The position numbers and the translations under genes are program-made. The notes below the pieces were generated by a model, which saw only the letters and a list, made by a program, of their open reading frames with translations, ran no database searches and was not told where the DNA came from. A stretch of DNA of 64,000 nt from Lingula anatina (lineage: Eukaryota > Animalia > Brachiopoda): positions 2,604,001 to 2,668,000 of the forward strand of contig CM120646.1 in NCBI GenBank assembly GCA_051362555.1, given 5' to 3'. How positions within the stretch are numbered: the stretch's first letter is position 1; every line of letters begins with the position of its first letter. Shown piece after piece: positions 30,114 to 64,000 of the stretch.

Positions 30114-31166
30114 ATGGCTACTCGCACCAATGTGAATGAACAGCGGCCTCAGATGGAAGGTGAGATGTATACCAAGAATCCATGTTCAATGCACAGCAAC
30201 CCACAGACATGCAGCCGCCGTGTTGTTCGCTTTGCGTATCTCAGGCTCGTAGGGTTTTCCACGGTGTTCGTGTTCGTATTCACGGCGTGGAACGGGCTGC
30301 AGACCCTCCAGAGCAGTTTATACAGCGAGCATGGACTGGGACTTACTGTTCTGACTGTAGGTTACAGCGTCAGTGCCCTGGGCGCTTTATTCGCCCCAGT
30401 CCTGGTCGAAAAAATCGGTTGCAAGAAAGCCATCATTGCAGGCATCTGCTCAGCGATTGGCTTCTTTTGTGCCAATTTCTATCCTCGGATGTATACCCTC
30501 GTTCCTACTGTCTTCGTTTTCGGGTTGCTAGGCAACGTGTTAATGACTGCTGCTAGCTGTTTTGTGACCACCCTGGCCATAAAAGCCGCACGAGCGTCTG
30601 GAAGGGAGGAAGACATCCTAATAAGTGGATTTAATGGGACGTTCGCGTCATTCTTTAAAACCACTAACATATTTGGGAATCTCATTTCGTGGCTAGTGCT
30701 AAAACAGTCTGACCATACCGGCCAAAACCAATCGCTAGACACCAAAAATGACACATTTCTGTTCAATGTTTCCGAAATGCAGCGTACTCAGGATACAACA
30801 TCTACCATCAATGTAACTGTTTGTAGTTTATACAGCGACCCAAGCATCTTACGGAGTCTTCATTCCCACGCTAGCACTAGGTCCCCAAAACCTGACAAAG
30901 AGTTAGTCTTGCTACTTGTTGGCGTGTATGTAGCCCTGTCAGTTACTGGCGCTATTGGTGCTCTGTTTCTAATCAAAGAAGTCGATGTCCACAAAGATTC
31001 GACCCATGAAAAGCCTCCACCAGCTAAAGTAACACAGGTGTCCCAATTAAGACTTTCCATATTGTCCACTATTCTTTTGCTCCGAGAATTCAAGATGGCG
31101 GCGTTGCTGCCAATGATTGCGTGGAGTGCGATGCATTTAGGGTTCCTGTTTGCGGAATTCACAAAG
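30114..31166 (+). CDS. UNC-93-like variable exon V1 (N-terminal ~TM1-7)
   Basis: Motifs FTAWNGLQTLQSSL, ANFYP, FNGTF, FGNLISWLVL; ends FAEFTK|gtaggg in phase 0. Confidence 0.9.
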
Positions 31167-32496
31167 GTAGGGCAGCTATGTTGTAAAGATGATGGTTGGG
31201 TGTTCTTATAAACCACACTACACCTGAGTCTCGGCGCTGTGTTGTACCTTTTATTTTGGGATTAGATCTGTTGAATCGATAGAAAAGAAGCTGAAAACTG
31301 ACAGAAGAGTGTTGTTTACATTAACCAAATTAGATGCTTTGAAGTTCTCCTTCTCGATCCCTTACCTTTTTTTATTTCTTCCTTTTCCTTTTTTGTCTTT
31401 CTTTCTTTCTTTTTTCGCTTGTTTGTTCCTTGTTTTGAATTTATTTTTTTCTACGTGCTTTGGTATAGATTAGTTGTAGGCCTATTGCGACAAAATGTGT
31501 AATATACAGGTGCACGAAAACGGCGTATCTTTGAACTGTTTCAGACATTTAAAACGTGTAACTGATGTGGTAACTAATGTGTACTGCATTTATATGCTTC
31601 ATAATTACATTAGAAATGTATTTCCGTGTGTGCACTTTTCAGATAACAGATCAAAGAGGGTTGTGATAGGATTATACGGGAAACTAAAACTGAAATTGCT
31701 ATTCTCAGCTTTAATTCATTCTGGTAATGGTGTGCATGATTGACGTGGTTGTATAACGTAGTAAATACTTAAGGCTCACATACGCGCACCGAATATTGAA
31801 CTTATTAAACTATGCATTCATATGCATCATGATTGCGAAGAACGCACTGTATGGAATGTATTTAAGTGGCTGATTTCTAGGTTTTTGATTGATAGGAGAT
31901 TGTAGTACTACGGTATATTCAAGTCACGTTCACAACCAGCCGATTTTAAGACCCTCAGTCGTTCGTTCAATATTTTGTCGTCTTGTGACGTCAGTCAGGC
32001 TAGGCCCAGTTTGGAAAAATTTATCAAAGCGCCCGAGTTTGATCTACGGCACGCGACAGACTATATTTCCTGTATAGGTCGGCATGGATCGCCAAGAATT
32101 ACGCAAAATCTTTGAACACTACTGTAGTGTATGCATTGACTTGATACTGCGATGGAGTGATAGGTTATTTCAACACACTTCTCTGTATAAGAAACGCGCT
32201 GTTAATAAAAAGACGGAGAGATAATGTGCGCTGGAAAGAAGGGGGGTGTAGCATCCGGACGTTGGGCGTTTTCTTGGTCTACATTTAATCTGACGATTAG
32301 ATAGTGTCCATGTGAAAGAAAATCGTCTCTTTTGAAGAAATCCTTGATAGGGGCTAATCGGATGCGTGTTTACATTTTTCGTGTAGTTTATGGGTACGAT
32401 AACCTTTAACGGGCATTTTTTTTCTTTGTTACAGCTTGCATTTCATCACCAGTAATATAATGCAACGATAGCGATGGTTGATAACCGTTGATCGTT

Positions 32497-32531
<35 letters not shown>

Positions 32532-32567
32532 AAATTCCTCCTAAAGGGAGTGATAGTTTCAAGAATA

Positions 32568-32764
32568 TAAAACAAATGAGCATCATTTTTTAACGTTTCG
32601 GCCTAGTGCCTTCCTTAGTTTCATTTCCCGGTTTTCTTACTGTTTTCACTTTGAATGATTGGTTTTTCTTTGAAGGGAAAATGTAGTTTACAAGGAAATC
32701 GGGAGATAAGACTGAGGAAGGCACTACTGGGCCGAAACGTTTGACATTGGTGTTCATATTTTTA
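32568..32764. mobile_element. Inverted pair of Penelope-like terminal fragments with hammerhead-like core
   Basis: CTGAGGAAGGCACTACTGGGCCGAAACGTT at 32712-32741 on plus. A related CTAAGGAAGGCACTAGGCCGAAACGTT lies on minus at ~32592-32618. Confidence 0.45.
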
Positions 32765-36716: not shown

Positions 36717-37658
36717 ATGGAGCAGACGACGAAGTTTACGGCGGATTGTGGTGTCTCAGTACGGAAAGGATATCCGTCTCTCTCGCGGTTAATTCGAAAG
36801 ACCTACATCAACTTGGGAACGATATCTGCAATAGCCGTCGTTGTGTATAATGCCTGGTCGGGCCAACAAAACCTCCAGAGCAGCCTGAACTTCGAAGATG
36901 GCATAGGAGTTATATCTCTCAGCATATTCTACGCTGCGTCGATTGCATCCTCTTTGTATGCGCCGCTAATGGTGGACAAATTGGGCCCAAAGAAGTCGAT
37001 ACTGATTTCTGTAAGTGCGGCACTTTTGTATTACGCTGCTAATTTCTACCCCACAATGTATACACTCGGTATCGCAGCTCTGTTGTATGGGTTGGTCTCC
37101 ACGCCGTTCTTCACATGTCTGGGCTACATCATTACTACGGCTGCTTTAGACAACGCAATCCTTACGGGCAGGGACGGGGACGTGGTAATAAGTCGCTTCA
37201 ATGGCATTTACTGGTCACTTTTTAAAACGACACACATAACCGGAAACATGATTTCTTGGTTGGTTCTAAGCCAAGCGAAACACAAGGTAGATAACGGCAC
37301 GTATTTTGCCGAAACCCGGAACGAGAGCGCCGACGGTTTCTCGGTGTGCAGCGTCCGCAGTTGTCCGGATACTTGGGAAACAGCTCATCTGCACTCCGAA
37401 ACAAACTCTCCTCGGCCGGAAAAGTCATTAGTTTACACTCTGTTGGGTATCTACCTTGCCCTGGTAGTGACTGGGATTCTTATCACAGTTGTGGCTCTCA
37501 AAGAACCAAACCGGAAACAAAACGATAAAGCAGACGATACAAAGCAGATGATGTTCGCTACGGTGATCCTTTGGCGGGATTACAAGATGGCGCTGCTTCT
37601 TCCGTTATTCGTCTTTAATGGGGTCCAGATGGCTTTTCTTTATGCAGAATTTACAAAG
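36717..37658 (+). CDS. UNC-93-like variable exon V2
   Basis: Motifs QQNLQSSLN, ANFYP, FNGIYW, GNMISWLVL, CSVRSCP; ends YAEFTK|gtgagg in phase 0. Confidence 0.9.
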
Positions 37659-40292: not shown

Positions 40293-41378
40293 ATGGCTGA
40301 AACTGTGTCCTTGAATAGCGAGGGTAAAGCTGGTGTTATGGGCGAGTCCGACACGTTACAGGAATTTCCTCAATCTCGTGATCTATCCGGGGTCTGTAAA
40401 CCCGTAGACGAACACGCAGATGATTCAGATACCGACTGCAAGCCGTCAGGGATGGACGAAGAGGATTTACGCGTAAAGATCCGGAGAACATATCTGGATC
40501 TGGCTGTGATTACTATTATATTCACTGTGGTTTTTAATGCATGGCACAGCCAGCAGAATCTACAGAGCAGCCTCAATTTTGAAGGCGGCCTTGGTGTAGC
40601 AGCTATGAGTGTATGCTACGGGGCTGTGATTGTATCGTCTTTCTATGCACCGTACGTTCTCGTGAAGCTAGGGCCCAGGTATACCCTGCTTATCTACCTC
40701 GGCTGCGGTCTCTTGTTTTACGCCTCAAATTTTTACCCCAAGTTTTACACCATGATCCCTGGGGCCCTGTTATTCGGGATACTGGGGACGCCTATCTACG
40801 CCGCCCAGGGGTACATCGTGACCACCGCTGCCATCCAAAACGCCGCCCTCACCGGACGCAACGAGGACGAAGTTATAAGTACGTTTAACGGCGTTTTCTG
40901 GTCCTGCTTCTACACAACCCAAGTCTCGGGAAATTTGCTCTCTACGTTAGTGCTACAGGAGTCGGAGCATAATCGATATTCGGAGAGGAACAGTTCGCTG
41001 GGAAATGGCTCAGTCGGTCTCGGGGATAGCTTTTTCAATCGAACCCAAACGCAATCCGTCTGTAGCATTCACAGCTGCCCTGATAATTGGGTGATGGGAC
41101 ACATTCACTCTGAGACGCAGTCCCCGCGTCCGGAAGATCATTTGGTCTACATCTTGGTCGGGACTTACTTGGGACTGGTTGTGATTGGGATGTGCATTAC
41201 AGCGTTTGCCCTGAAAGAGCAAGAAGTGGAACACGATGTAAAGGCCACGGTGCACGAGACGAAGGAGCTGCTTCTGGCGACCTTCACCCTTATGAAAGAC
41301 CCCAATCTGTTTTTAATGATTCCATTGTATGTCTTCAATGGATTCCACATGATATTTTTGTTTTCGGAATTCACAAAG
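40293..41378 (+). CDS. UNC-93-like variable exon V3
   Basis: Motifs QQNLQSSLN, SNFYP, AQGYIVT, GNLLSTLVL, CSIHSCP; ends FSEFTK|gtacgt in phase 0. Confidence 0.9.
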
Positions 41379-43840: not shown

Positions 43841-44672
43841 GAAGAATTTCAAGATGGATCAGCCTTCAGAAACCTGTAATTGTGTAAACTTTATAAAATC
43901 GCATTTTCAACTTTATAGAACATGCTCGAAACAAGCTCGCAGTTCATTCAATAATTCAATAACCAAAGGTTGTTGTTTTTAATTGAACGGACACTACGTT
44001 TTAAATAACCAAAAATAATGCTGATATAGGCATAGCAAATGCCTGAAGCTTGGGCACTATCATTTTTTTTTTTTGCTTATATGATACGCAGACGCTTCTC
44101 TTTAATTGGAATTGACATATCAATGCTTTTGTCTTAGTCTTGTGCTTTGTCTTACTTAATCTTGTGCTTTTTCTTAGTCTTGTGCGGAAAATTTACCTTT
44201 TTTCTACTGAAGTAACCCTGTTTATCATTGAGTGATTTCGCGTGAGAAATCGCAATGTTCTTAAAATGTCTGTCTGACATCGTTTATGTAAAGTTGGCTT
44301 GTTTGATGTAAGTTTAAATGTTAAACATTGTTGAACGTGGTAGCGCCGGCGACATGCATGTAAGAACACTTGTTTATGTAGGTTTTATTGTTTTAAATTA
44401 GCAAGGTGTCAGCGGAGGCAGAATTTATGAACATCCCATCTTTCAGTATCACTAACTGATATGTTTTTCATGACACCGAGTCAGTGTTTTACGTGCTTTG
44501 ATACCTAATAAGACACCTCAGTAGCTTAGTGATGACCCCTGTAGTTCTTTCACGTGAAAAGTTTGAAAACAAGGATATACCAATATACCGGTATCTCCTG
44601 TGCATAATACCATTTCTCTTTCGTTTGAAATGCATTCACTTATTAAACAGGTCGTGTAACTAAAGCAACATT

Positions 44673-45743
44673 ATGTCAGTTTTAGCTGCAGGTAAAGATA
44701 GACCAGACAGCATGAGCGGTTCCAAGATATCAGGTGAATTACGACTTTTTAATAACGAACATTCCTGCTATGAAGACATCTCAAATATTACAAACAATGC
44801 ATCGGAGTCGACTGAAATTGATGAAGTGGATTTAAATAGGAAAATAAGGAAAACGTATCTTGATCTCGTCGCTGTTTCAGCGATATTCACCATATCATTT
44901 AGTGGCTGGCTTGGTCTTCAGAATCTTCAGAGCAGCCTGAACGTCGAGGGTGGGCTTGGCGTGGCGTCTTTGAGTGTAAGCTATGGCAGTTTATTAGTAT
45001 CTTCTTTCTACGCCCCATTCTTACTGGCAAAGTTAGCATCTCGGCGTACGATCTTGTTACATCTCGTTTTAAGCCTTTTGTACTACGCAGCCAATTTCTA
45101 TCCCAAGTTTTATACAATGCTTCCCGCATCAGCGCTATTAGGTCTGTTCTGGACGCCTCTGTTTACTGCCCAGGGGTACGTCGTGACCACGGCCGCTGTC
45201 CAGAACGCCGCCTTCACTGGCCGAAACGCGGACGAAGTAATTAGCACCTTCAACGGCTTCTTCTGGTCGACCTTCAAATTAGCCCATGTAATCGGTTCCT
45301 TGCTCTCTATGGTCGTTCTTCAACCTTCAAAACACAATCACGACAATCTTTGGAATAATTCAGTGATAAATGATTCGGATAATCTAGGAAAACTGTTATT
45401 AAATGAAACATGGGTTCCATCCTTTTGTAGCGGACATAGTTGCCCGAATAACTGGCCGTCGGGTCCCGTGCAGGCGGAGTCCCAACCGCACAGGCCTGAA
45501 GATTTCTTGATTTACACCCTCATTGGATCTTACATGGGTTTGGTGACAATAGGGATATGTATCACAGTTTTTACCCTGAAAGATCAAAAAGTGGATCGTG
45601 ATCAGAGATCGACAGTGGGGGAGAACAAAAAGCACCTTCTTGCTATTTTCAGGCTTATGAAGGATCCTAAGATTTATTTAAATATTCCACTTTTTTGCTT
45701 CGTCGGAATGCAAATGGCGTTTTTGTTTTCGGAATTCACTAAG
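44673..45743 (+). CDS. UNC-93-like variable exon V4
   Basis: Motifs LQNLQSSLN, ANFYP, AQGYVVT, CSGHSCP; ends FSEFTK|gtatgt in phase 0. Confidence 0.9.
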
Positions 45744-47766: not shown

Positions 47767-48831
47767 ATGTCAGTAAAAGAAGTGGGAAATGGTGTTCTGG
47801 AGACTGATTTAGAGATATTCCAAGAATCTTTTCGTTGTGAAAAGGAGGCCAAAAGCCGCGATGAATTATCAAGTGAAGGGAACAATGTGGAACGTTTTAA
47901 AGTAACTGTGAAGTTGGATTTACGTCGAAAGATACGGCAAACCTATTTTGACCTCGCCATCATCACTGCCATATTTAATATTGTATTCAGTGCATGGTTC
48001 AGCCAGTTGAATCTACAGAGTAGTCTTAACTTTAAGGGCGGACTTGGCGTTGCAGCCATGAGCGTCACTTACGGCACTCAGATAGTTTCATCTTTCTATG
48101 CTCCCGTTATCGTAGCTAAGCTAGGATCTAAGTACACTTTGCTAATGTTTATTGGATGTAATGTACTCTTTTACGCTGCAAATTTCCATCCTCGCTTGTA
48201 CACCATGATCCCTGGGTCTGTCCTTTCTGGGCTGCTGGCGACACCTATTTTCACGGCCCAGGGGTACATCGTGACGTCTGCTGCAATTCACAACGCTGCC
48301 CTGACCGAGCGAAATAAAGATGATGTTATTAGCAACTTCAACGGTATTTTCTGGTCATGTTTCAAATCAGCACAGATTTCAGGAAATTTGCTGTCAACCC
48401 TTGTGTTGCAGCAATCAAAACACTCTTATTATGACTACAGAAACAGCTCATTAAGCAATTTTTCTGAGAAACCCGGGGATGCTTCGTCAGAGGAAACCGG
48501 AGTTTCTTCTTTGTGCGGAGTCAAAAGCTGCCCAGACAACTGGGTTTCGGGACATGTGCACGTAGGAACACAGTCCCCCAGACCGGAAGATACCCTGGTT
48601 TACATCCTGCTTGGGTCTTACATGGGGTTGGTCGTGATCGGGGCGGGCATCACAGCATTTGCCCTGAAAGAACAGAAAGCGGAACGCAAGGAAAAGTTGA
48701 CGGCTGAAGACACCAAGCAACTAATTTTAGCCACTGTCAAACTTATGAAGTGCCCATCAATGTGTTTGCTGATATCTCTTTGTGTTTCTAACGGCGTACA
48801 GATGGCTTTTTTGAGTGCGGTCTTTACTCAG
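47767..48831 (+). CDS. UNC-93-like variable exon V5
   Basis: Motifs QLNLQSSLN, ANFHP, AQGYIVT, GNLLSTLVL, CGVKSCP; ends SAVFTQ|gtaccg in phase 0. Confidence 0.88.
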
Positions 48832-49522: not shown

Positions 49523-50951
49523 TGTGTGAGTTTGTGTGTGTGTGTGTGTGCTTTTGTTGGAAAATTTTGTTTGTGGAATACCAGAAAGTACAGTCAGTGG
49601 AATTACAATCACTGATCTGTTGCCTAATATAACCAGACTTCTCAATTAGCAATCTTATTTTAACTTTTGAAAAAAATGAGCAAATCGAAGAAGCAAGGTG
49701 AATTAACTTGAGGACGTGGTAGCAAACTGTTCACTTTAAGACGTTTGAAAAGCACAACTTCGTGAAGCCCGATGTGTAGATATGAATTTCTTCACTATAA
49801 CGCATTTCGTCTCGTCGCGGGTTTAATGTTTATTTATTTATTATTTTCATACACACAAACAAAAAAGCTGCTGGCGTAATGTAAATTATATATAGTTGTG
49901 TTCAGTTCTCTTTTCCCCAGCTATTCCATCCCGATATAATTCTCTATGTCAACCTCTGTGCTACTTCCCCCTTCATCGTTTACATTGGATCCCACCCAGG
50001 GACTTGAATTTACTTACTTTTTTTTACTTTCACCCCTTCCATCTTCACATCTCCATTTTCATTACATAGGCATTTAGGTACTCAGTCTTGCTCCTCATTA
50101 CCTTCACCCCCCCCCCCCCCCCCCTGCTCTCACTTCACGACCGAGCGCACTTTAGCTTGTAGGTTATTTTGGTGAATTGTCACCAGTAAAGTCATCTCCA
50201 CCTAAACAGACATCATCTCTATGTATGTTATTATGTATTCAATAACCAACTCAATTTGTATTCACGCTATCTTAAAAAGTAAAGCCCCTGTTTGACATTC
50301 GCTTAATTTCTTGCACTCGGTAAAGGAGGCTGGATACCAAGTTCAGAAAACATTTGCTCTAAATTTTAACCTCACGTGAATCAGTGATGTGCTTTTCAGT
50401 ATATAGCCGTGAATGCTTGTACTGTTTTGTGGTTTGTTAGGTGATTTAAGATAAGGGGTAAGTGGACATTTGTATCGTGACCTTTATCGGGGACACGTCT
50501 GGGTTTCATGTAAATGGATACCAAACGCTCTACGGGTGATGTAACTGCACGGTATCTCCACATTTAATTTGTTTCTGGCTATATGCATGTACGTCACGAG
50601 CAAGTGAGGGCATGTGAGACATGCACTGCATTTACAGTGATGTTCATTCACCAGACTAAAGTTTAAATACCACACAATCACATGATGCAGAGAGTGGCAT
50701 ATCGCTGGAGGGGCATGCAGGGAATCATGACCTCAAAAGGCCTGACAAGAGGTACAAAAAGGGCTTTAATGTATACCGGGTCAGGCGTAGAGAGGTACAT
50801 AAGCACCCCTGACGGTACATATTGAAACTTTGTCAAGACCACCTGTGCTGACACACGTTGGTGTTTTTGCACCACTTCAATACCAGTTTAAGGTCAAGAT
50901 AGTGTATGTTAGTTTACAGCCATATTTTTGTCTTCTTGTAGTTTATACATA

Positions 50952-51854
50952 ATGTCGATTTGTACAACCTGTAAAGATCTGCAAAACATATTGGCTTTGT
51001 CCACGGCCTTCCTGATCGTGTTCACGGGCTGGCACGGGTCAGAGACTATACAGACTAGCCTGAACAAGGAAGAGGATTTTGGTGTTCTCGCGCTCAGTCT
51101 GAATTATGGCGTGGCGGTTCTGTCTGCTCTAGTGTCTCCGGTTGTGGTAGAGAAGATAGGTTTGAAGCGAATCCTAATGGTCGGTTTCTTGACCCATGCG
51201 TTATTTCACGCTGCTAACTTTTATCGGTCTACCTATACCGTCGTACCTATAACTGTGTTGAAGGGGTTCACGGTGAACCCCGTGTGGACGGCCCAGGGGT
51301 ACCTGACCACAACATATGCCATGGATTTGGCGGATCAACGAGGACTGGCAAGCAGTGATGCGACAGTCAGTTCATTCCAAGGCATATTTGGACTAATGTA
51401 CAAATCCAGTTTTGTCTGGGGTAATCTCCTATCATGGGTTGTGCTCAAGAACAGAGCACATCCTTTGCACCCAAGTATCAACAGTTCGGTTGACGGCATC
51501 ACTGCTGCCAACCTGACAACAGTACCCACGTGCGGCATTGGATACTGTCCAGCTTCCTCGTGCAATGCATCTGTGGAAGAGCCGATTCAGGACAGCAACA
51601 CAAATGTGTCAGATGAGCTGAGGTACGCTTTAATGGGCGTCTATCTCTCCCTGGCCTTAAGTGGGATTGTTTTTACGTTCTTCGCCCTGAAAGATGAAAG
51701 CCTTTATAAACACGGCAACCAGAAGTTGGTGGGTCCGAAAGACCTTCTATTGTCCACTTTGGCATTATTGAAGACGGCCAATATGGTAATGCTGGCCCCA
51801 CTAATGACTTTTTGCGGAATGCACGGGGCATTTTTGTTGGGTGATGTTTCAAAG
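50952..51854 (+). CDS. UNC-93-like variable exon V6
   Basis: Motifs IQTSLN, ANFY, PVWTAQGYLT, WGNLLSWVVL, CGIGYCP; ends GDVSK|gtgagt in phase 0. Confidence 0.9.
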
Positions 51855-52987
51855 GTGAGTTGATTAGAATGTTTTTTTTTTAAACACACCTCGATTTTGG
51901 TGAAGTTTGCTTTTTGATTTACATATTTATACAAGGTTCAAATTATTAAAGATATTAAGAACAAATGTTTTCTGAACTTAGTTTACCGAGTGCTGTACTG
52001 TGCACTTCGTTTTGGGTGCGACCGAACGCATACGAAAGTTAATCACCCCTAACTGCTCGAGGAGGTGTGTCATCCAGTTAATATGATTGCATCCAGAGAC
52101 AGTCCCAGCAGAGCTGGATCGATTTTCGCAGAGTGATAGTTTCATTGGGAATTCGCCCATAGCTGTACATGTTCTTCGTGAAAACAATTATTGCAACTTA
52201 GAATGCACAACACAGATACAAATGTTATCTGTACGTGAAGTATAAATATGTCGTAAATATATTCACGACAAAGGGGAACAATAAACTACAACAAAACACG
52301 AAAGCATCACAAAGAAGACAAGAACACAAAACGTCTGGCATTTTCTGTGCAATGTGTTAAGATATAACTTGAAAGAGACGTACGCGTATTTATTTTTGAT
52401 AAGTCAAGTACATCCTTTATCTTATTGGTTAGATTTTATGACATATATAATAAGGACCACCGTACTTGAGTTTAACCTTAGTTAACCGCACTGCTAGTTC
52501 TCGCAAAAAGCTTCACAAATGTTTTTTTTCTGTGAGTGAAAACTGAACAGAAGAGCATGTCACACGAATATAGATTTAAAGTACATTTGAAAAAAAAAGT
52601 CCACCGCATGGGTAACACATTTCCATTAAGACAATGGAATCCAAGTTTTGCGACGTCATGAGAAGCTGGTACATAGAATACAATGACGGCGTAAAACAGG
52701 CGTGAAGGTTCCACGAGGACTTAGTTGTTTCTTTTTTCCTGTCAGGAAATTATTCCAAGCACTTACTACTAAACAATTTAACCAAAATGAAGCTATCGAG
52801 TTACAGCACTTCAACTATAGAAGTTTACTGCTGATTGTCTTGCCGGTCAGATAAGTCAGCGCTTTTCATTCTCGCCCGGTTATCTTGTTGCCTCAGAAAT
52901 CAGGTTATTGAAGATTAAATGCGTATTATTTGTGAGCACAGGAAGAAGACTCCATCCGTTGTTGGAAGAAGGAGAACTGGTGATATA

Positions 52988-53914
52988 ATGGCACCTTTTA
53001 AAGGCATCAAAAGTAGCAGTTCCACCAAGACGACATATCGGGATGTGCTTGTGTTTACGGTCTTATTCACTCTCGTATACATTCCGCATAGCTGCCTCGT
53101 TATGGTCCAAACAAGCCTCAACGCAAAGGATGGCCTTGGAACTCTTGCCATGGCTGTGATGAGTTTGGCAACACTGGCGTCAGCATTCATTGCCCCATTC
53201 GTACTACAAAAACTCACACCAAAAAGGACGTTACTTGCAGGCTTTCTGATCCAGGCGCTTTGGCAAGCGTCAAATTTCTACCCTAGTTTCTTTACGGTTA
53301 TCCCTGGCGCATTTTTAGTGGGATTGTCCCAGGGTCCCTTGTGGACTGTTCAGGGAGAATATGTTACAACCCTAGCTTTGAGCCATGCCTCTGTGACAGA
53401 GAAAGCGCCAGATATTGTCATAAGTCTCTTCAATGGGATATTTTACCTTATATTCAAAACGGCACATATATGGGGCAATTTGGTCACGCTGCTTGTGTTT
53501 ATGCAACGCGAGAAGAACCCGGATGATAATGGTATAAAGAATTTAACCCTCGGAGTGGACGCTAACAATATTACTGTAAATGTCAGCCTTACAGCCGAAC
53601 CAAACTTGAAATGTAGCGTTCACAGCTGTCCAATGGACGACTCCATAAGATCCCATAACAAAACTATCGTGCAGAGACCAGATGAGCGTCTGGTTTACAC
53701 ACTGCTAGGTGCAAACATTGGGCTGGTAGTATTGTCCACTCTTCTGGCCCTAATTTTGTTTAAACCGCCAAAGCAGATAGGACGTTTGCTTAAAACGAAG
53801 GATCTTGTGCTGGCGACAGTCAAGTTACTCAGCAACCATAAACTTACTCTTCACATTCCATTAATGGGTTACAATGGTCTGCATCAAGCTTTTCTGTTTG
53901 GCGAAGTATCTAAG
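52988..53914 (+). CDS. UNC-93-like variable exon V7 (alternative in-frame ATG at 52919)
   Basis: Motifs VQTSLN, SNFYP, PLWTVQGEY, WGNLVTLLVF, CSVHSCP; ends GEVSK|gtaggg in phase 0. Confidence 0.9.
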
Positions 53915-54062
53915 GTAGGGGTGTGTGTAAAATCAGTGTAGATATCGCCCAGTTTAATCGGTTATATTCATATCTTTATTTTATTCTCTTTTACGATTTT
54001 ATTAAGTTTATTATGCTTTTTTTACAGGATGAATTACTGTACATTTGCTTTCTTTGTTTTTG

Positions 54063-54408
54063 TTTGAAGTAAAAGCAAAGTCACTTTCTTACAAAACTGC
54101 ACTCCACACGCGTATCAGTGCGGTTTGCAGTGGTCAGTTTGGCACTATAATACAGACTCACTGGGTGTAGGGAATCTCCCTCCTTTCCTGGGTAGGATAA
54201 AGCCCATAAGAGGCGCTGAAAGCTACCATACGAACAATATCCTTCATTGTCACACCAGGAACTCTACCCTGCTTCAACCCTATTGTGCTGAGTGCCAAGC
54301 GGGGAAACAGCAAACACTATATATGAATATCTGATATGTCCCCAGACGGGGTCAAAGCCACGTCCTCCCGCTCCGGAGGCGGACAGTCTGACCACAAGGT
54401 CATACGGC
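54063..54408 (-). mobile_element. tRNA-derived SINE
   Basis: The minus-strand head has A-box-like TGACCTTGTGG and B-box-like GGCTTTGACCC. A core GCTTGGCACTCAGCA recalls the Meta-SINE core. Confidence 0.6.
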
Positions 54409-54437
54409 AATTTATTTATTTTACACCCGCGTGCGCT

Positions 54438-54439
<2 letters not shown>

Positions 54440-54521
<82 letters not shown>
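54440..54521. repeat. Compound (AC)n(AG)n microsatellite
   Basis: Direct inspection. Confidence 0.95.
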
Positions 54522-54525
<4 letters not shown>

Positions 54526-55105
54526 ATTTAGGCTATTAAGTCTTGTCCAGTGATCATCTTATCTTATTGGTGAGGTTGCATAAGTTTATTGTCACTCTAT
54601 CGTACATGATGTGATGCCAGCTGACTGCACTGTAGCTTTTCCTACACAGTGTTCTCACAGGTGCTGTCATACGTACTGGTAGATAATCATTAATCAGAAC
54701 GCTTGAAAATATATAGGGGCAATCCTCGTGTGTGGCACATTTCAGTTAAGACAATGGTGACTCTTGACTCTTCATGACAAGTTACCACGTAATACGAAGG
54801 TGGCCTGAAGCAGCTCACAGCACTACTTGTGCATAGCTGTGCTTTCCGACCTGCAGACAATTTATGCAGCGATTGAGTCTTTTTTTTTTCGAACAATTCC
54901 TAATGGCAGCTGCAAATTCAGAAACATCACAGTTGTCGAGTTGTGCCCCTTAAAGTTTAGTAGCTGAATGTCGGCTTTGGCACCAATCAGTTACGTAAGA
55001 AGCTATATTTGCACTATTTCCGTTTCGTTGGGTAATCTTGTACTGTCTCGGGTCGGGTTTGTATAACAGGATACAAAGTGCTTGTACGTTGAAACGTGGA
55101 GGAAA

Positions 55106-56077
55106 ATGGCTCCTCCTGTTACTGTGAGGAAGATTCGGCATGGTTCAACGCCTAACAAGGACAGAGAGCTTGAAACGTCCTCTAAAAGAAGTTACAGGGA
55201 TATTCTTGTATTTGCGATCTTATTTACGCTCATTTTTACACCGCATTGCTGCCTAAATACGATCCAGACAAGCCTCAACGCGAAGGACGGCCTGGGAACC
55301 CTCGCGTTGGCAGCAGCAAGTTTTACGACACTGGTGTCAGCATTCATTGTCCCATTTGTTCTCCAAAAACTCACACTTAAGAAGACGTTGATTGCAGGAT
55401 TCCTGATTCAAGCACTTTGGCAAGCATCAAATTTCTACCCTAGTTTCTTTACGGTTATCCCCGGGGCTCTCTTGATGGGATTGTCCCAGGGTCCTTTGAT
55501 GACTGTTCAGGGAGAGTATGTTACAACTCTTGCTTTGAACCACGCCTCTGCGACGGAGAAAGCGCCAGATGTTGTCATAAGTCTCTTCAATGGGATATTT
55601 TACCTTATATTCAAAACGGCACATGTGTGGGGCAATTTGGTCACGCTGCTCGTGTTTATGCAACGCGAGGGCAACGCGCCTGAAAATGGTGTCGTGAATT
55701 TTACTCTCGGAGTGGACGCTGCAGTCAGCAATAGTACTGTGAATGTCATTATTGCAGGCGAACCGGAGTTAAGATGTAGCGTTCACAGCTGTCCATTGGA
55801 TGACTCAATACGATCGAAGAACGAAACTAGCCTAGAGAGACCAGCAGAGCGTCTGGTTTACACACTGCTAGGTGCAAACATTGGGATGGTAGTATTGTCC
55901 ACTCTGTTGGCCATTATGTTGTTTAAACCGCCAAAGCGCAGGAAGGTCGTGCTCGAAACGAAGATTCTTCTTCTAGCGACAGTCAAGTTACTAAGCAACC
56001 ATAAACTTACTCTCCTCATACCATTAATGGGTTACAATGGCCTGCATCAAGCTTTTCTGTTTGGCGAAGTATCTAAG
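55106..56077 (+). CDS. UNC-93-like variable exon V8 (close paralog of V7)
   Basis: Motifs IQTSLN, SNFYP, TVQGEY, CSVHSCP; ends GEVSK|gtaggg in phase 0. Confidence 0.9.
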
Positions 56078-56574
56078 GTAGGGAAGAGTGCAAAAGACTG
56101 ACAATATCAACCATTTGACTTGGTCATGTTTATTTTTACATGATCCTCTTTTATATTTTAGTTACATGTAGGTTCGTTGGCACTTGCGTATTACTGTTAA
56201 AGGCAGCCTCGACCGTACGTTTGCACGCATTATGCGTAAGGCTATTTCACACACACGCACACACACGCACAGTAAATAAAAGAAACCATGTGAAATCCAT
56301 CAACCAGAAATCCACATGCCATCAATTTCACATGGGGTTGGCCAGTGGTTTACTGGCAGAGAGGTCACATAGGCAATAACAGAGCTCTCAGATGAGACTT
56401 GGGGCGCGTTCACAGTCAAAGTTAATCCTTCCCACTTGAGAGCTTGCAGCATAACCCATTCAGTGTCTGTTAAGGGATTTTGCAGCAAGCTTTTAGTGGT
56501 CGGACATATTTGATCGCAGATTTGAAGGTCCTCAGATCAAATCTGTTGTGCATGCGGCTAATATTTGCTTTATC

Positions 56575-56693
56575 TTAAAGGGATAATAACTCTTTGTTTT
56601 GGCCAAAAATATTAATTTTCCTAGAGTAAACATCAATTTTCCCATACTTACCAATGGTTAGCGAACCCATTTTTACATTCAAAGTTAGTCCCT

Positions 56694-56744
<51 letters not shown>

Positions 56745-56892
56745 CTGTTAAGTGAATATGACGTAGTATAGCCATCAATGGAGGTCATGTGGTCTAAAGA
56801 CAAGCTCAGATATCAGAATAATAGCTATAACTGCCAGAAAATATTATATTTCTATGAGTTGTTCACAATGTTTTTATTGTGAAATATAGATC
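56575..56892. mobile_element. TTAA-flanked MITE, copy 2 (inverted relative to 14010-14354; one end lost)
   Basis: Begins TTAAAGGGATAATAACTCTT. The body is the reverse complement of ~14036-14354. Confidence 0.8.
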
Positions 56893-57551
56893 TGATTTAA
56901 CATCCCGCTGTACACTATTCTTGTTTACTTACACCAGGTGATAACCTTTGTATAGTTTAATCATCAAATTAAATGGCAGCGTCTGTGCAGGAGTTGGACG
57001 CCCGGGCGAATTGATCTTCATGGCAAATATGTTCCAGGTGGAAAATCCTGTCACAGCGACGCAGTCTTCACCTTGACATGTCGAGTAAGACAAACTGAGA
57101 CGAAAATATCACATAAAGACTTATAATGAAAAACATATTCCTGTCTGCAACTTTTTTCCATTAAGATATCTATCTACACTGACTTCTTTTAAGGCAGCAT
57201 TTTAAATTGTGCTCGTTTGACGTGTCATATAACTGTAACACGACCACATGACTGAAAGAGGTTGCAGTATACTCAGTAATCTTCGCTGATGCCACTGGAT
57301 GCCACTAAAAGATATTGCTTATATAAAGAGATAACACCACACGGTCAGCCATGGTGTCAGTAAGGTGAAGTATGTGACCTGGCAGTGAGAAAATTTTGCA
57401 TAGGCCATTTAAGGCTGTAACTTACATTACCATTATTCTAGTTGAACATTATTGTTGGAATACATTTTGAAATCCACACAGTTAAGCAGTGCGGGGATTA
57501 GAGAGATGGATTCTTGACATAAAGCTTGAAAATCCCTTCAAAACAGACGAC

Positions 57552-58463
57552 ATGATGAGAAAGCGAGGAGATACGTTGGCCAGAAAAGTGTGGACGGATC
57601 TTTTCTTTCTGTCTGTATTGTACTCACTAGGTCACACACCAGTGAACGGGATGTTGGCTATTCTGAGTGGTCTTCTAGCTAAAAATGGCCTTGGTTTTAC
57701 AACTCTTGCTGTTCAATATGCGGGATACATTATATCGGGATTTTCGGGACCGTTTGTAATTGAAAAACTGACGCCAAAGGGATACGTCTTTTGTGGCTTT
57801 TTAAGTATTTTATTATTGCAAGTATCGCTGTTTTACCCCATTCCTTACACTGTAATTCCAGCAGCGGCGCTCGTAGGGTTGATACTTGGGACTCATTTAC
57901 CCGTAGCGTGCATGTACTGCACAGTTCTAGCTGAACAACATGCCACCAGAATCATGACCCGTGGTGATATTTCCATAAGCAAATTCAATGGGATTTTTTT
58001 CTCCTTCTATAAGTTGTCTTTTGTTTGGGGTAACTTGTTGTCTTGGCTGATTTTAAAGCAGGGCAGTGTTGTGACAAATGTGACAAGTGTGAATATGAAT
58101 ATGAATATTTCGGACAACAACACGCGCTGTCTGAATGTTTCGATCCAATGTGACACACGTGCTTGCCCAACTGATACTGATTCATGCGAAGAAGTTGGCT
58201 TTTCCTTACCGTCTAAATCAGCCACGTACACACTGGTCGGCGTTTACGCTGGCTGTGCCTTGTTTTGCATGATCGCAACTGTCGTATTCCTCAAACCATT
58301 GTCCGCGATTGGTGGGTGCTCAGTTCCAGCCGGGAAGAACACAAGTGTGACACTGATGTTGGCTACAGTGAGCATGTGGAAGAATGTGAACGTTTTGCTG
58401 TTATTTCCTATTTTTACATACAGTGGATTGATGCAAGGATTCCTCGTTGGGGATTTTAATAAG
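57552..58463 (+). CDS. UNC-93-like variable exon V9 (divergent)
   Basis: Motifs EKLTPK, FYP, FNGIFF, WGNLLSWLIL, CDTRACP; ends GDFNK|gtatgc in phase 0. Confidence 0.88.
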
Positions 58464-59797
58464 GTATGCTTTGTGACTCATACGAAAGTTGTATGTAGGT
58501 GTATTTTTCATCCAAAAATAAAATTCTGTTTTGAGTTGTTTTTAGGCAGGCAATGCCCAATGGCAATGTGACAAAATCGACACCTGTGAAGGACAAACGA
58601 GCAGCAAGCAAAAACCGCAGCAAGCAACGGTTTGTTCTCTGATAGGTCAAGATTACTAATGCCTGATAATATTTTGTGCATGACGCAACACGAGTCTCAA
58701 GCCAACACTTGTGTATGTCTTTTAAGCATCATGTATTTTATATTATCATTATAGTGTTCCCTATTACATTTAACAAAGTGGCCGCACTGCACATAGAATC
58801 TCGTTTTCAAACATTTCGAAATATTTCGGGATGTATGCAGAATATCCCTGGGTATATATGGCCATTTGGAGGTCAGAAGAACTATTGATGACATGGCTAC
58901 TATGGCCGCATTCAAAACCAAAGATAATCCGCAGACTAACAGATCCGCTGATCAAATATGGCCGATCCACTTGAAAGTTTGTGGCGGGGAATCTATTCAG
59001 TGCCTGTTAGAATTTTATGCGAAAAGCTCTCAACTGGGTTAGTCATATTTGATAAGCGGATCTTAGTCCGCAAATCAAAAGGTTGTGAATGCCGCCTATC
59101 TTGAGTTTGTTACTGATTTAGTTTCGAACAGGTAGGGAGGCATGTAGCACCGAAAGCCTATTGAAAGTTACTCGACCAGTCATGCATATCTATAACCGTA
59201 TACTGTAGTAAACTATTGGATAGCCAGGTCACCTAAAGACTAATTTTCACAAAGACCAATTTTCCCATATTGCATTTCACACAGCTAAAATATGAGTGCA
59301 CCTATGCCTTAGTCCAAGAGAGCAGATAGTTCAACTCGATTGAACTTGAACCGGTATGATATACTGATGAGTGGACGGTATTTGATATGATTGTGCAGAT
59401 GTTCATTTAGCTATGCCAATGTGTTAATTATAGGGTACAGTTTATGATAACTGACAAGCAGTGTCTGTCGCAAACTGGGGTTATATTTGTATTCATACTG
59501 GCAAGATAAACTGTTTTATATCATATGTATATGACCTCCTTCGTGGGCCAAGGCGAAGACAAGGCCGTGTTTATCTCTTCGTGGTTTGCATCCGAACCAA
59601 CACACTGATAGGAAAACATAGGCAGATCAAGTGGGTGTACTTTATCCAGAATCCTCAAATCTACACGCTCGTGTAAGATTAACAGAATGATGTCTTCCCA
59701 GCTTGTTAGTACAATGAAACTTTGCAGCTAAGACGGTCCAGTTTTCCCACCTGACCATGTAAAACGAAGCCTATGAGGAAACCAGAGGAGTAGAAAC

Positions 59798-60718
59798 ATG
59801 GATACCGGAGAGACAGATGAGTCGGATGTGCCCCTTACTCGCAGGAAGTTGCTGGGTGTTCGCATAATTGCTGAAGTGTTTTTGCTTGCATTTGTCTACA
59901 CTCTGGGATATACGTCGTTCAACGGACTGCAGGCCCTGCAAAGTACTTTGAACGGAGGTCTAGGGTTCACGCTGCTCGGCATAGTATATGCGTTCTCCAT
60001 TATTTCAGGGTTCATTGCCCCTGCCATTGTTGAGAAGCTGACACCAAAAGGGGCAATACTGGCTGGCCTCCTCGTGCATGGAACCTGGCAAGGGGTGCAC
60101 TTTTACCCAGTCGAATTTACGCTGATTCCGGCCGCCATTTTCCTTGGCCTTGGATTTGGGCCGCTGTGGACAGCGCAGGGCATGTACGTGACGTCATCAG
60201 GACTAGAGTATGCTGATAAAACGGGCCGAGAAGTTGATGGGAGTATAAGTCTGTTGAATGGAATTTTTTGGGCTTGTTACAAAACGACAGTGATTTGGGG
60301 CAATATTGTCTCCTGGCGTGTACTACAAAATGCTCAACACATACTGGGTAATAACACCACTCTTTCAAACAGCAGTGGGTTTCTCTCAGTGTGTGGGATT
60401 CATAACTGTCCGTATAGCAATGATGGAAGTGATACTCAAGTCTCTGACTATTCAACAATTCAACCCTCAAAACAGCAAATGTACATACTGTTAGGCATAT
60501 ACTCTGGTCTGGTGCTTCTTGGATTCGTCGTAGCTGCCGTATTTTTAAAGCCGTTAAGTCAGCAGAAAACGCACACAAGTGAAAACAAACTGGATGGGGT
60601 CAAAGACGCCCTGTTGATGACAGTTAGGACGCTGAGAAACCCAAAACTTTTGCTCTTATTACCTCTCTTCGTGCTGAATGGTTTAATTCAGTCATTCACA
60701 TATGGTGATTACACGAAG
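59798..60718 (+). CDS. UNC-93-like variable exon V10
   Basis: Motifs FNGLQALQSTLN, PLWTAQGMYVT, WGNIVSW, CGIHNCP; ends GDYTK|gtaagc in phase 0. Confidence 0.9.
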
Positions 60719-62092
60719 GTAAGCTTATCTGATCAACATCTAAAATGGTTTGATAGGGGTATATTTCTCGATGTCAGATAAGTCGGGTCTGTGACATTGG
60801 TTTTGGTATTATGCAATTTTCAATGAATATTATATATTTATTTCACCATGGATTTATCCCGAAAATTTCTCATAACATAAATGAACAAAAACATAAATTC
60901 TTATTGTGTCACTTATCATTGTTGTATAAGAAATTCCTATCCCAACTTTATCCATGGCTATGCACATAGCCTTGATTTCAAATAGCTGCACACTTTAAAT
61001 TCAAGAGGTAAGATACTCGTCCCATATCTCAATGGTTTCTCGATAAGAACATTCAGTGTAATGCACCAGTAGTCGGCTAGGTGCTTTATTTTTCACACAT
61101 ATCCGTCACTGAAAGTTTGACATGACATACATAAATACACGTTACTTCGTATTTGTAAAACTGTATCCGAACATTTTGTTCAGTGAACAAGTTAGGTTAA
61201 AGTTTTGTCACGTAGTGAGTTATTGAGTCCTTCGTATCATGAAAGAATCTATGTGGACAGTATAACGCGGTATGCTGTTAGCTGGTATGTGTATGGTGTC
61301 ATCTGAGTCAATTATGAGTCTGCTGTAAGTTTATACATACGTTGATAAGTTAGTCAACATACAACAATGTTTGCACTCACAAGAGGCCATCCACAATATT
61401 TGCAGTACGGAGGTCCAAATCTGATAAGGACTTATATTTCGTCGTACTGGGTGATTATAAGTTATTGGTATACAAGTGGGACTAGCTGGTCTGAACAACT
61501 CAATTTGTACAATATCCTTGGTTTGTGGTTATTTTGACAAAAATCGATATGTGATAGCACTGGTTGTGTTAAATTTAATCATTTATTATATGTGTAGATG
61601 GCACTGCACATTAGGGGCTATGTACCATGGATAGGCCCCTATATGATGATTATAACAGCATAACCTTAGATACTATATCCGTGGCTCAAATAGCGCTTAC
61701 TCACCTAAAAATGTCATAAACAGGGAACTGGTGTGCCTGTTACATGTAGTAGTAATACTACTGTCACTATCAGTATATCACTAGTAGGACTCGTCTTGTT
61801 GATAGTGTCGATAGATGGCGTTCCTCACACACAAGTGTCAATATTATTATTATCTGTTCCTGCCCTATAAACAAACTTTTCACTGATGACCAACATTTCT
61901 GTTTGTGGTCGCACAACTTCTGATAAAAGTTCACACGCCACCGAGCACATAGCTATGTGCAGCTTATTAATAGCTAAAGACAACAGAAACGCAAGTTTCT
62001 TAGTCCATGTTTAGATGATGAAAGGTTGACCAGATGGTTGTCCGGAAGGGGTTAGAGGTGTCCCACTCCTGTATCAGTTTATTTAAATTAAC

Positions 62093-62123
<31 letters not shown>

Positions 62124-63504
62124 TATTGATGAATTTATTTGGATTCAACAATACAAATATGTTCAGAGGACTTTACAATGCAACGAAAAAAATAATTTTA
62201 AGGCAAGTAAAAGAAATGAAAAATCAATTACCCGAGGAAAATTCAATTAAAATAAATTATGTAGAAATTAAAAACGTTGCTTAATCACACTCTTTAAAAG
62301 TCGTTTATAATAACTGTATTCATAATTTTTTTTTAAATTAAACTTGAAGAAATTTCATTCGTTGTAAGTCTACCTCAACTTGCTTTGGCCATGATGCCAT
62401 GTGTGTTATGGACGCATGAGACGGCACATACGCCCAACGCGACAAATGGTGTCTGTATCTGAACAATTTTGAAATTCCACGCAGTGCACACATTACGGAT
62501 TAACGTTACGTCGACATCCCTCATTATTGACCCGATATTATCCGTTACTAACCATGAAAAGGATTCTGCGCTACGTTTCTGGTAGCCGCTTTCAATTATA
62601 CACATCTTTAATTATACTTTTACGTATTGCGCCGGGATCTCCTTCTATCTTTGGTTGATCTTGACGCAATAACGTGCCGATCAAAGGTTTATAGAGAAGA
62701 TGAAACTTGCTGTGATGCTACATCGGAATATTTTGTCCATTTCAAATGTAAAGAACACAGGGAACGTTTATTGTCATTTTCCATAGTGCTACGTCTCAAA
62801 GTATTAAAACCATCTTGATTTAAGCAAATGGTCTATTTAGGGTCCAGTAAGTGTGGACTAAGTGTGGTCTGTCTGTCTGTCTGTTTGAATGAAGTGATTG
62901 TATTTTTAATAGGAGTTCGGGAGGGGAGTTCGACAGTGTTTCCTTTGTACTACACGCGTATGTTCTGACATTGTGTTTTTAATCTGTGAATTACAGATTG
63001 CATCGGTGGTTCATTGCACACAACCTAGAACCCAATGGGTCTTTCTTCTTGTGTAGATTCGTTTCGATAACCCAATTATTTCCGTAATTGTACACGCACC
63101 TAATGCGTGATTATCACGCCCTACCTCATGGTTGGCTAATATAGTGATGTTGTTATTAAGATTTTTGTCTTTTAAATAGACAGATATCCCTGATGGTTCC
63201 ATATAAGTGACAATTAAGATGACCTTCTTGGGACATTTATGCAACCAGTGTCACAATGACCCTAATGTTAACAGATATTGTAAAACATGACCTTTGTACA
63301 AGTATTTGCCGTTCGTAGTGACACAGTTCCGATTCGGTGGTTAATAACCTAATCTCAATACATAATACATAATCTCTGAGCATTTGGGTTTGTGGTCCTC
63401 TTCAGTGTAAGTTGTCTGTAAAGACGTGATCGCAGTCATGTAGAAAACGATTTTTTAAATAGTTTTCTAAAGTGTTTCTCTCTGTTCGAGGTGGACAACA
63501 GAAA

Positions 63505-64000
63505 ATGGCGACTGCCAGGAGCTCTTACCTGAAGCTTTTTGCGCTGGCATCGATGTATTTGATAGTTTATATTGCCCACAATGGCATACAAAATTTACAG
63601 AGCACATTGAATGCCAGAGGCGGCCTTGGAGTTGTCGCCCTCTGCTTAGTCTACACTGGGATTATCGTATCTTCCTTCTTCGCTCCCGCGGTGGTGGCGA
63701 AACTGGGGCCAAAGTTTGTGGTTGTCTTGGGCTTTGTGTCCCACGCACTTTGGCAAGCATCGAATTTTTACGTTGCACCGTATACACTGCTACCGGGCGC
63801 CTTACTGCTTGGACTTATGTGGGGACCTTTATGGACCGCCCAGGGGATCTTTCTTACCATCTACGCACTCGACTACTCCAAGGCTACCAATCAAAAGATT
63901 CCTATAAGCATAAGCCGCTTCACTGGGATATTTTGGCTGATTTTTAAGACGTCTCATATTTGGGGCAATGCGCTATCCTGGTTGGTTTTTAAGCAGACTG
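63505..64000 (+). CDS. UNC-93-like variable exon V11 (runs off right edge; absent from ORF track)
   Basis: Manual translation is open to the window end: MATARSSYLKLFALASMYLIVYIAHNGIQNLQSTLNARGGLG...SNFY...PLWTAQGIFLT...WGNALSWLVFKQT. Confidence 0.9.
   Translation, partial: MATARSSYLKLFALASMYLIVYIAHNGIQNLQSTLNARGGLGVVALCLVYTGIIVSSFFAPAVVAKLGPKFVVVLGFVSHALWQASNFYVAPYTLLPGALLLGLMWGPLWTAQGIFLTIYALDYSKATNQKIPISISRFTGIFWLIFKTSHIWGNALSWLVFKQT

What the first reader, a model, noticed from the sequence alone, without database searches (positions are those of the whole stretch)
30114..64000. Protocadherin/UGT1A-style array of at least 11 variable N-terminal exons for an UNC-93-like MFS protein
Seen: eleven same-strand, intact, intronless coding units, each with its own ATG. 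All 10 complete units lose homology at the same codon, which is followed by a phase-0 GT donor: 31166 AAG|gtaggg, 37658 AAG|gtgagg, 41378 AAG|gtacgt, 45743 AAG|gtatgt, 48831 CAG|gtaccg, 51854 AAG|gtgagt, 53914 AAG|gtaggg, 56077 AAG|gtaggg, 58463 AAG|gtatgc, 60718 AAG|gtaagc. The read-through tails after the donor are short and not conserved. Several spacers are only 1.1-1.5 kb and partly filled by repeats, and I see no exon for the rest of the protein in any spacer. Known: UNC93A-type proteins continue after this 'EYTK/R' motif with SYVTC.LG and several more helices. Clustered protocadherins and UGT1A join large variable first exons to shared constant exons. Inference: this is one gene making 11 or more isoforms with interchangeable N-terminal helix bundles on a common C-terminal part. 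I know of no such architecture described for UNC-93/MFS proteins.
Basis: partly seen in the sequence, partly recalled or inferred. Interest (0 to 1): 0.95.

Follow-up and report, generated by a model that had tools for sequence, protein, structure and literature searches.

The report
Swappable front halves, one membrane protein
A brachiopod carries a row of at least eleven large exons, each coding about seven of the twelve predicted membrane helices of an UNC-93-type protein; automated database gene models join three of them to one identical tail, and the other eight likely do the same, which would let one gene make a panel of likely transporters with different binding pockets.

Summary
Eleven intact UNC-93 units lie on the + strand. 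All 10 complete ones end at a phase-0 MAG|GTR donor at the same aligned codon. Named public proteins place the DNA in Lingula. RefSeq isoforms X1, X2 and X3 of one L. anatina gene are units 3, 1 and 2 (35-50% alike), each joined exactly at the predicted donor to an identical 256-residue tail. That tail is absent from the window, so it likely lies past unit 11. In an AlphaFold model the variable exon supplies TM1-6 and most of TM7; the tail supplies TM8-12. Units 4-11 show low RNA coverage in places and purifying selection where measurable, but their joining is inferred: no raw-read junction was seen. Own promoters are untested. TM1, a cavity helix, is unusually diverged, hinting at different substrates. 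The design is known (UGT1A, protocadherins), and this scan noted it for other genes in other genomes, but no look-alike of this sequence. I found no paper on it for UNC-93/MFS. New variant of a known kind.

The parts
30114..31166 (+). Variable exon 1 (351 codons), donor AAG|gtaggg
   Evidence: 351/351 identical to the N-part of RefSeq isoform X2, joined here to the shared tail
36717..37658 (+). Variable exon 2 (314 codons), donor AAG|gtgagg
   Evidence: 312/314 to RefSeq isoform X3; X3 is the protein folded
40293..41378 (+). Variable exon 3 (362 codons), donor AAG|gtacgt
   Evidence: 360/362 to RefSeq isoform X1; X5 is an N-terminally shorter form of it, 206/209
44673..45743 (+). Variable exon 4 (357 codons), donor AAG|gtatgt; joining inferred
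   Evidence: 58% to unit 3; RNA depth at most 0.5, in X1 with the opposite mate orientation to unit 10
47767..48831 (+). Variable exon 5 (355 codons), donor CAG|gtaccg; joining inferred
   Evidence: bin 47671-48324 depth 2.02+2.62 in X9, 0.45+0.92 in X7, 0.01 in X1, 0 in X4; dN 0.33, dS 2.6 against unit 3
50952..51854 (+). Variable exon 6 (301 codons), donor AAG|gtgagt; joining inferred
   Evidence: no reads in bin 50941-51594 in any of 4 runs
52919..53914 (+). Variable exon 7 (332 codons), donor AAG|gtaggg; joining inferred
   Evidence: depth 1.03 in X1; 74% to unit 8, dN 0.164, dS 0.51
55106..56077 (+). Variable exon 8 (324 codons), donor AAG|gtaggg; joining inferred
   Evidence: bin 55519-56172 essentially uncovered
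57552..58463 (+). Variable exon 9 (304 codons), donor AAG|gtatgc; joining inferred
   Evidence: depth 0.2-0.4 in X1
59798..60718 (+). Variable exon 10 (307 codons), donor AAG|gtaagc; joining inferred
   Evidence: X1 depth 2.71 and 4.86 on one mate orientation, 0 in the next bin 60751-61404; 0 in X4 and X9
63505..64000 (+). Variable exon 11, cut by the window end (165 codons seen; donor not in the window)
   Evidence: depth 0.11 in X7, 0.4 in X9

Best explanation
This is the variable region of one Lingula UNC93A-like gene: automated gene models splice exons 1-3 at the same phase-0 donor onto one identical 256-residue tail, exons 4-11 likely do the same onto constant exons that likely lie beyond the window, and each isoform is predicted to be a 12-helix MFS-fold protein whose swapped front part would change what it binds. 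Shown: the array, the donors, the absence of the tail from the window, and the three database isoforms with one tail. Predicted (AlphaFold): the variable exon gives the cytosolic N-terminus, TM1-6 with a Cys-bearing, sequon-rich TM5-6 loop, the linker and most of TM7; the constant part gives TM8-12 and the C-tail. Inferred: the array grew by tandem duplication of one large intronless 5' coding exon that an ancestral single gene already had; each exon is chosen by its own promoter and spliced to the first constant acceptor, skipping the others (about 0.65, against a shared untranslated leader); and the point is a panel of solute carriers or sensors with different central cavities, since the exon carries three of the four cavity helices (TM1, TM4, TM7) (about 0.5, against partner selection). 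Odds: shared tail for units 1-3 about 0.93; for most of the eleven about 0.78.
For: Identical 256-aa tail on X1, X2, X3 and X5, with junctions exactly at donors 41378, 31166 and 37658; N-parts 35-50% alike. Tail not in the window. 10 of 10 donors MAG|GTR against 2 of 3307 internal positions. All 10 complete frames are intact though synonymous sites are near or at saturation in 7 of 8 pairs tested; dN below dS in the 4 pairs with a finite dS. RNA over unit 10 stops at the donor bin and lies on one mate orientation; unit 5 and unit 10 are covered in different runs. Units 1-10 form one clade (support 0.77) beside the Lingula paralog P0004, and neighbours group together. Model pLDDT 82.7, junction at residue 314 in helix 289-321; top PDB matches are UNC93B1, E 1.7e-13. 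The intronless 5' part with this intron is old: a chiton protein (XP_064612643.1) and a genomic-type ORF of its 90% cluster agree over 438 of 469 residues and part at FTK|, and 66 of 83 short homologs have Val right after the junction against 1 of 66 full-length ones. Cavity helices TM1, 4, 7, 10: PMC8154325 (passages). TM1 identity among units 0.345 against 0.438 among 54 other full-length homologs (3 of 200 random sets of ten were as low), while TM6, the loop and the linker are more alike among units.
Against: No raw-read junction to the constant exon was seen for any unit; the loose-end and joint tables were filled by repeats (432 loose ends and 23 joints not shown). Units 4-11 were not found joined in any database protein (one search scored only 7994 candidates, only lengths 168-538). 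The constant exons were never seen as DNA (no genome held). RefSeq also holds a single read-through protein of unit 1 (XP_013394118.1, 365 aa, 98.6%, on a 60 kb contig). RNA depth is low; unit 6 had none in its main bin, and unit 4 reads in X1 have the opposite orientation. No shared upstream motif above shuffle level (best 12-mer in 5 of 11; shuffles 4-6), unlike UGT1. The TM1 result is post hoc (9 segments, comparators chosen by likeness to unit 10, clade support only 0.77). No substrate is known for the family: the fly UNC93A did not carry sugars or amino acids in HEK cells (PMC7591606, passages).
Confidence: 0.75

Rival explanations
1. Same exon architecture, different purpose: the isoforms are chaperones or auxiliary subunits, and the swapped N-terminal bundle selects a client membrane protein (Toll-like receptors, as for UNC93B1, or two-pore potassium channels, as for worm UNC-93).
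For: UNC93B1 binds TLR3 and TLR7 through its N-terminal six-helix bundle (PMC13682336, passages; TM6 contact in PMC8154325), exactly the swapped part. UNC-93/UNC93A are suggested regulators of SUP-9/TASK channels (PMC7591606). The TM5-6 loop differs in length and sequons among units.
Against: TM6 is more alike among units (0.391) than among other homologs (0.284), while cavity helix TM1 is less alike. The protein is 17-18% identical to UNC93B1 in the structural alignment and the units about 27-34% to hedgehog UNC93A. No Lingula client was examined.
Confidence: 0.35
2. A shared untranslated leader exon upstream is spliced to one of the eleven exons, so the choice is made by mutually exclusive splicing and not by promoters.
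For: Acceptor-like pyrimidine tracts sit just before the ATG of unit 6 (-11) and unit 7 (-23); no common promoter motif was found.
Against: Acceptor-like sites (12 or more of 17 pyrimidines) occur upstream of 3 of 11 units; background gives about 3.5 (0.32 per 150 nt). Private untranslated exons would explain such sites equally well.
Confidence: 0.2
3. Only units 1-3 (or 1-5) use the known tail; the rest splice to a second constant region further on, as two clusters in a row, or some are silent relics.
For: The tree splits units 1-5 from 6-10; only units 1-3 appear among the RefSeq isoforms retrieved; unit 6 showed no reads in its main bin.
Against: Units 1-3 must already skip units 4-11 to reach their tail. 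The tail search returned no other close tail, only the 48% paralog P0004 on a different contig (3 hits among 861 candidates). All frames and donors are intact.
Confidence: 0.14
4. The units are stand-alone single-exon genes making seven-helix half proteins by reading through the donor.
For: RefSeq XP_013394118.1 is such a read-through model of unit 1; 6 of 10 units have an AATAAA or ATTAAA within 500 nt of the read-through stop.
Against: Tails are 2-38 residues and unconserved; strong donors in 10 of 10; RNA over unit 10 drops to 0 after the donor bin; three spliced isoforms exist. The read-through model sits on a 60 kb contig and may be a second allele lacking the downstream exons (inference).
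Confidence: 0.05

Closest known systems
Vertebrate UGT1A, UGT2A and GCNT2 variable-exon clusters (PMC1885805, passages read)
   Same: Tandem paralogous large 5' exons in one reading frame, each coding the N-terminal part, spliced to common constant exons; about a dozen members; lineage-specific tandem growth with neighbours most alike.
   Different: There the cut falls between two domains of a soluble enzyme fold; here it is predicted to fall inside a 12-helix membrane fold, at the end of TM7. Distinct promoters and a conserved upstream motif are reported for UGT1; neither is shown here.
Clustered protocadherins (search listing, and passages of PMC1885805; the rest recalled)
   Same: Large single variable exon plus constant 3' exons.
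   Different: The protocadherin constant part is a short cytoplasmic tail (recalled); here it is five of twelve membrane helices and needed for the fold. Stochastic, CTCF-driven choice was not tested.
UNC93A / fly CG4928 / worm UNC-93 (PMC7591606, passages)
   Same: Pfam UNC-93, 12-helix MFS topology, same motif at the end of TM7.
   Different: No variable-exon array was found in the papers searched; several family-conserved TM1/TM4 residues are replaced in many units (for example the Trp at unit-2 position 132: 98% in 54 homologs, 3 of 10 units).
UNC93B1 (PDB 7c76, 7c77)
   Same: Best structural and sequence match among solved structures; its client-binding N-terminal bundle corresponds to the variable exon.
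   Different: 17-18% identity; one protein serving several TLRs, not an array.
RefSeq L. anatina 'protein unc-93 homolog A' isoforms X1, X2, X3, X5 (XP_013382517.1, 518.2, 519.1, 521.1)
   Same: The same locus: units 3, 1 and 2 on one tail.
   Different: Automated annotation only; units 4-11 were not found among database proteins; the isoform expected as X4 was not retrieved.

Membership tests
UNC-93 family (PF05978, MFS clan) | Profile match above the curated cut-off | tested here: met
   10 of 11 units above 22.9 bits; unit 1 19.1 bits as a half protein; RefSeq isoforms carry PF05978
UNC-93 family (PF05978, MFS clan) | Twelve-helix MFS fold in the spliced product | tested here: met
   AlphaFold model of X3, pLDDT 82.7; Foldseek top hits UNC93B1; a prediction, not a solved structure
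UNC-93 family (PF05978, MFS clan) | Transport, channel regulation or chaperone activity | not testable with these tools
   needs expression assays
Variable-first-exon cluster (UGT1/Pcdh type) | Tandem array of paralogous large exons, same strand, same 3' reading frame | tested here: met
Variable-first-exon cluster (UGT1/Pcdh type) | No private downstream exons between the variable exons | tested here: met
Variable-first-exon cluster (UGT1/Pcdh type) | Each variable exon spliced to one common set of constant exons | tested here: inconclusive
   met for 3 of 11 by automated RefSeq models; not shown for 8 of 11; no raw-read junction seen
Variable-first-exon cluster (UGT1/Pcdh type) | Each variable exon has its own promoter | not testable with these tools
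   read depth too low to show starts
Variable-first-exon cluster (UGT1/Pcdh type) | Conserved motif upstream of each exon (reported for UGT1) | tested here: inconclusive
   simple k-mer searches of 500-700 nt upstream found none above shuffles; a weak or more distant motif would be missed
Variable-first-exon cluster (UGT1/Pcdh type) | Tissue- or cell-specific use of exons | tested here: inconclusive
   unit 10 covered in X1 and not X9, unit 5 in X9 and hardly X1, at depth under 5; tissues unknown
Mutually exclusive cassette array behind a shared leader (Dscam-like; features recalled) | Splice acceptor before every unit and a shared upstream exon | tested here: inconclusive
   acceptor-like sites 3 of 11, background about 3.5; leader not examined by reads

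The most novel reading that the evidence does not exclude
One brachiopod gene builds eleven or more MFS-fold membrane proteins by swapping seven of twelve helices onto a fixed five-helix half, chosen cell by cell or tissue by tissue: a natural domain-swap library for an orphan carrier family, used either as a panel of substrate pockets or as receptor-specific chaperones for innate immune receptors. The same intronless exon and intron exist in other animals, so more such arrays may be hidden in annotations as truncated genes.
Probability: 0.4. Interest if true: 0.82.

Novelty: new variant of a known kind. Interest (0 to 1): 0.64.

Why it matters
Variable/constant exon clusters are known for enzymes and adhesion proteins; here the cut is predicted to run through a tightly packed 12-helix membrane fold, so one C-terminal half must pack against N-halves only 27-74% alike. 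UNC93A is an orphan with no known substrate (PMC7591606). Eleven natural variants that share TM8-12 exactly are a ready-made controlled experiment: any difference in transport, channel regulation or client binding maps to the swapped exon. It also warns annotators that short UNC-93 ORFs ending just after this motif (66 of 83 short homologs) are first exons, and some may belong to similar arrays.

Tried and rejected
Whole genome: none held, so the constant exons were not located. RNA runs: no RNA holder listed by index; nine runs were offered by species label. Reads laid on 44401-64000 (4 of 9 runs, 6-30% of each read): joints and loose ends shown all came from repeats, none at a donor; units 1-3 were not examined by reads. 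One search's C-terminal test used the whole protein by a script error and was redone. Exact look-up of nine read-through ORFs (units 2-10): 0 of 9 in the collection. Profile search with units 4-11: 3 hits, none a unit 4-11 isoform. Same architecture in other species: among 66 full-length homologs, only the Lingula isoforms pair an identical tail with a divergent front; the set is 50%-identity representatives, so this is weak. Ten homologs looked up for names: 2 clusters named a species (Owenia, Liolophura), neither with genomic context. Promoter motif and acceptor enrichment: none. Extra or decayed units in the window: none. Literature: 0 papers for UNC93A + variable first exons, Lingula anatina + unc-93, unc-93 + tandem + alternative first exons + invertebrate, variable exons + constant exons + major facilitator superfamily; 1 unrelated listing for Lingula anatina + variable exons; none of 12 listed (of 24) brachiopod TLR papers mentions UNC93. 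The library lacks most subscription papers, and no supplements were read. No complex prediction was run: no Lingula client protein was in hand.


Full report
Observation. The window is AT-rich animal DNA. Eleven + strand ORFs between 30114 and the window end all match Pfam UNC-93, 10 of 11 above the cut-off, and the ten complete ones cover only about the first 210 of 379 profile positions. All ten read MAG|GTR, a pattern found at 2 of 3307 in-frame positions inside the units. The read-through tails are 2-38 residues and unrelated beyond the first Val. Spacers are 1064-5550 nt. Neither a vertebrate UNC93A C-terminal part nor the gene's own tail has a match in the window, and a profile of the units finds no twelfth or decayed copy.

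What it is. A search of 1.84 billion representatives with unit 10 returned a protein 98.6% identical to unit 3 that continues, exactly at the donor, into 256 further residues. It is RefSeq 'protein unc-93 homolog A isoform X5' of Lingula anatina. Isoforms X1, X2 and X3, with neighbouring accessions and the same 703 kb contig length, are units 3 (360/362), 1 (351/351) and 2 (312/314), each followed by the identical 256 residues; their front parts are 35-50% alike. Because that tail is not in the window, these transcripts would have to skip units 4-11, if the RefSeq assembly and this window agree in layout. These are automated models; I could not see their RNA support. The isoform expected as X4 was not retrieved. 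Units 4-11 were not found joined in any database protein. RefSeq also has a 365-aa read-through model of unit 1 on a 60 kb contig, which I read as a second allele cut off from its downstream exons (inference).

Are units 4-11 alive? All frames and donors are intact although synonymous sites are near or at saturation in 7 of 8 pairs tested; the youngest pair, 7/8, has dN 0.164 and dS 0.51, and dN is below dS in all 4 pairs with a finite dS. Four of nine offered RNA runs were laid on 44401-64000. Depth is low. Unit 10 is covered in X1 (2.71, 4.86) on one mate orientation, with 0 in the bin after its donor; unit 5 is covered in X9 (2.02+2.62) and X7 but hardly in X1 (0.01); units 7, 9 and 11 have traces; unit 6 has none in its main bin; unit 4 reads in X1 lie in the opposite orientation. 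The joint and loose-end tables were filled by repeats, so no junction to the constant exon was seen. Joining of units 4-11 therefore remains an inference from anatomy, conservation and the three annotated cases.

Protein anatomy. An AlphaFold model of X3 (64-row alignment; pLDDT 82.7) has helices that I number TM1 22-57, TM2 60-89, TM3 91-108, TM4 114-150, TM5 154-184, TM6 236-260, TM7 289-321, TM8 324-351, TM9 353-373, TM10 381-409, TM11 414-434, TM12 441-484. The junction at 314 lies near the end of TM7. The best solved matches are UNC93B1 by fold (E 1.7e-13) and by sequence. So the variable exon is not only the N-bundle: it carries TM1, TM4 and TM7, three of the four central-cavity helices of MFS proteins (PMC8154325, passages), and a TM5-6 loop with two Cys (the second replaced in unit 1) and several sequons.

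Origin. In a tree of 127 front parts (proteins over 700 aa, fronts under 250 aa, unclassified tails and the five Lingula copies of units 1-3 left out), units 1-10 form one clade, support 0.77, next to the Lingula paralog P0004, with physical neighbours grouped: ((5,3),4),2,1 and (10,9),(8,7),6. The large intronless exon is older than the array: a chiton protein and a genomic-type ORF in its cluster agree over 438 of 469 residues and part at the same motif, and 66 of 83 short homologs have Val (GT) right after the junction, against 1 of 66 full-length ones. An exon holding start codon to donor in one piece can be duplicated without breaking frame, which is the likely route. No other species in the set showed identical tails with different fronts, a weak negative.

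How it most likely works. Each exon is likely transcribed from its own start and spliced to the first constant acceptor. This is by analogy with UGT1 (PMC1885805, passages): no shared upstream motif was found (best 5 of 11, shuffles 4-6), and acceptor-like sites before the ATGs are no more common than background (3 of 11 against about 3.5), so a shared leader is neither supported nor excluded. For function, the family offers two leads: partner handling (UNC93B1 binds TLRs with its N-terminal bundle, PMC13682336; UNC-93/UNC93A are suggested K2P regulators, PMC7591606) or transport of an unknown solute. Among units TM1 is less alike (0.345) than among 54 other full-length homologs (0.438; 3 of 200 random sets as low), TM4 is level, and TM5, TM6, TM7, loop and linker are more alike; family-conserved residues in TM1 and TM4 are replaced in many units. 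That leans toward diversified cavities, but it is a post hoc comparison of nine segments with a biased comparator set, and TM7, also a cavity helix, does not show it. I give about 0.5 to cavity diversification and 0.35 to partner selection.

Comparison and novelty. It works like UGT1A/GCNT2/protocadherin variable-constant clusters; membership is met for the array and the lack of private exons, met for 3 of 11 on splicing, and untested on promoters. Searches of the held library found no paper on such an arrangement for UNC-93 or MFS proteins; most subscription papers are missing from it and no supplements were read. Papers were seen as passages only or as listings. This scan's earlier notes report the same design for other membrane proteins in other invertebrates (unchecked), and nothing resembling this sequence, so the design may be commoner than textbooks suggest, which tempers the surprise.

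Verdict.

Noticed in passing
window 4670-7564 (-): LINE-type retrotransposon ORF2 in two frames: RVT_1 (E 9.9e-34) and zf-RVT (E 6e-07).
   Followed up: partly
window 11742-13299 (+): Probable exons of another gene; 12931-13296 matches the C-terminal end of RADX (PF17659, E 1.6e-06, below the cut-off).
   Followed up: partly
window 17195-17500 (-): Exon with a Vps26-family match (E 3.3e-05, below the cut-off); 16029-16340 (-) may be another exon of it.
   Followed up: partly
window 23038-25828 (+): Open frames that look like exons of a gene ending near 25828, no Pfam match; resemblance to SAXO/FAM154 microtubule proteins is recalled only. It bounds the array on the 5' side.
   Followed up: partly
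window 56572-56891 and 14038-14357: A roughly 320 nt element with inverted ends, two copies 79% alike in opposite orientation; related copies are very abundant in RNA reads. Other palindromic elements at 9684-9941, 21856-22098, 46568-46809.
   Followed up: no
protein P0004 (XP_013413708.1): Lingula paralog on another contig with a 48% similar tail; it is the best outside match for most units and may be the single-copy source or a second array.
   Followed up: partly
window 54267-54312: A 46 nt stretch matched by about 3100 reads of run X1 on one orientation: part of a highly expressed transcript from elsewhere sharing a short repeat.
   Followed up: no
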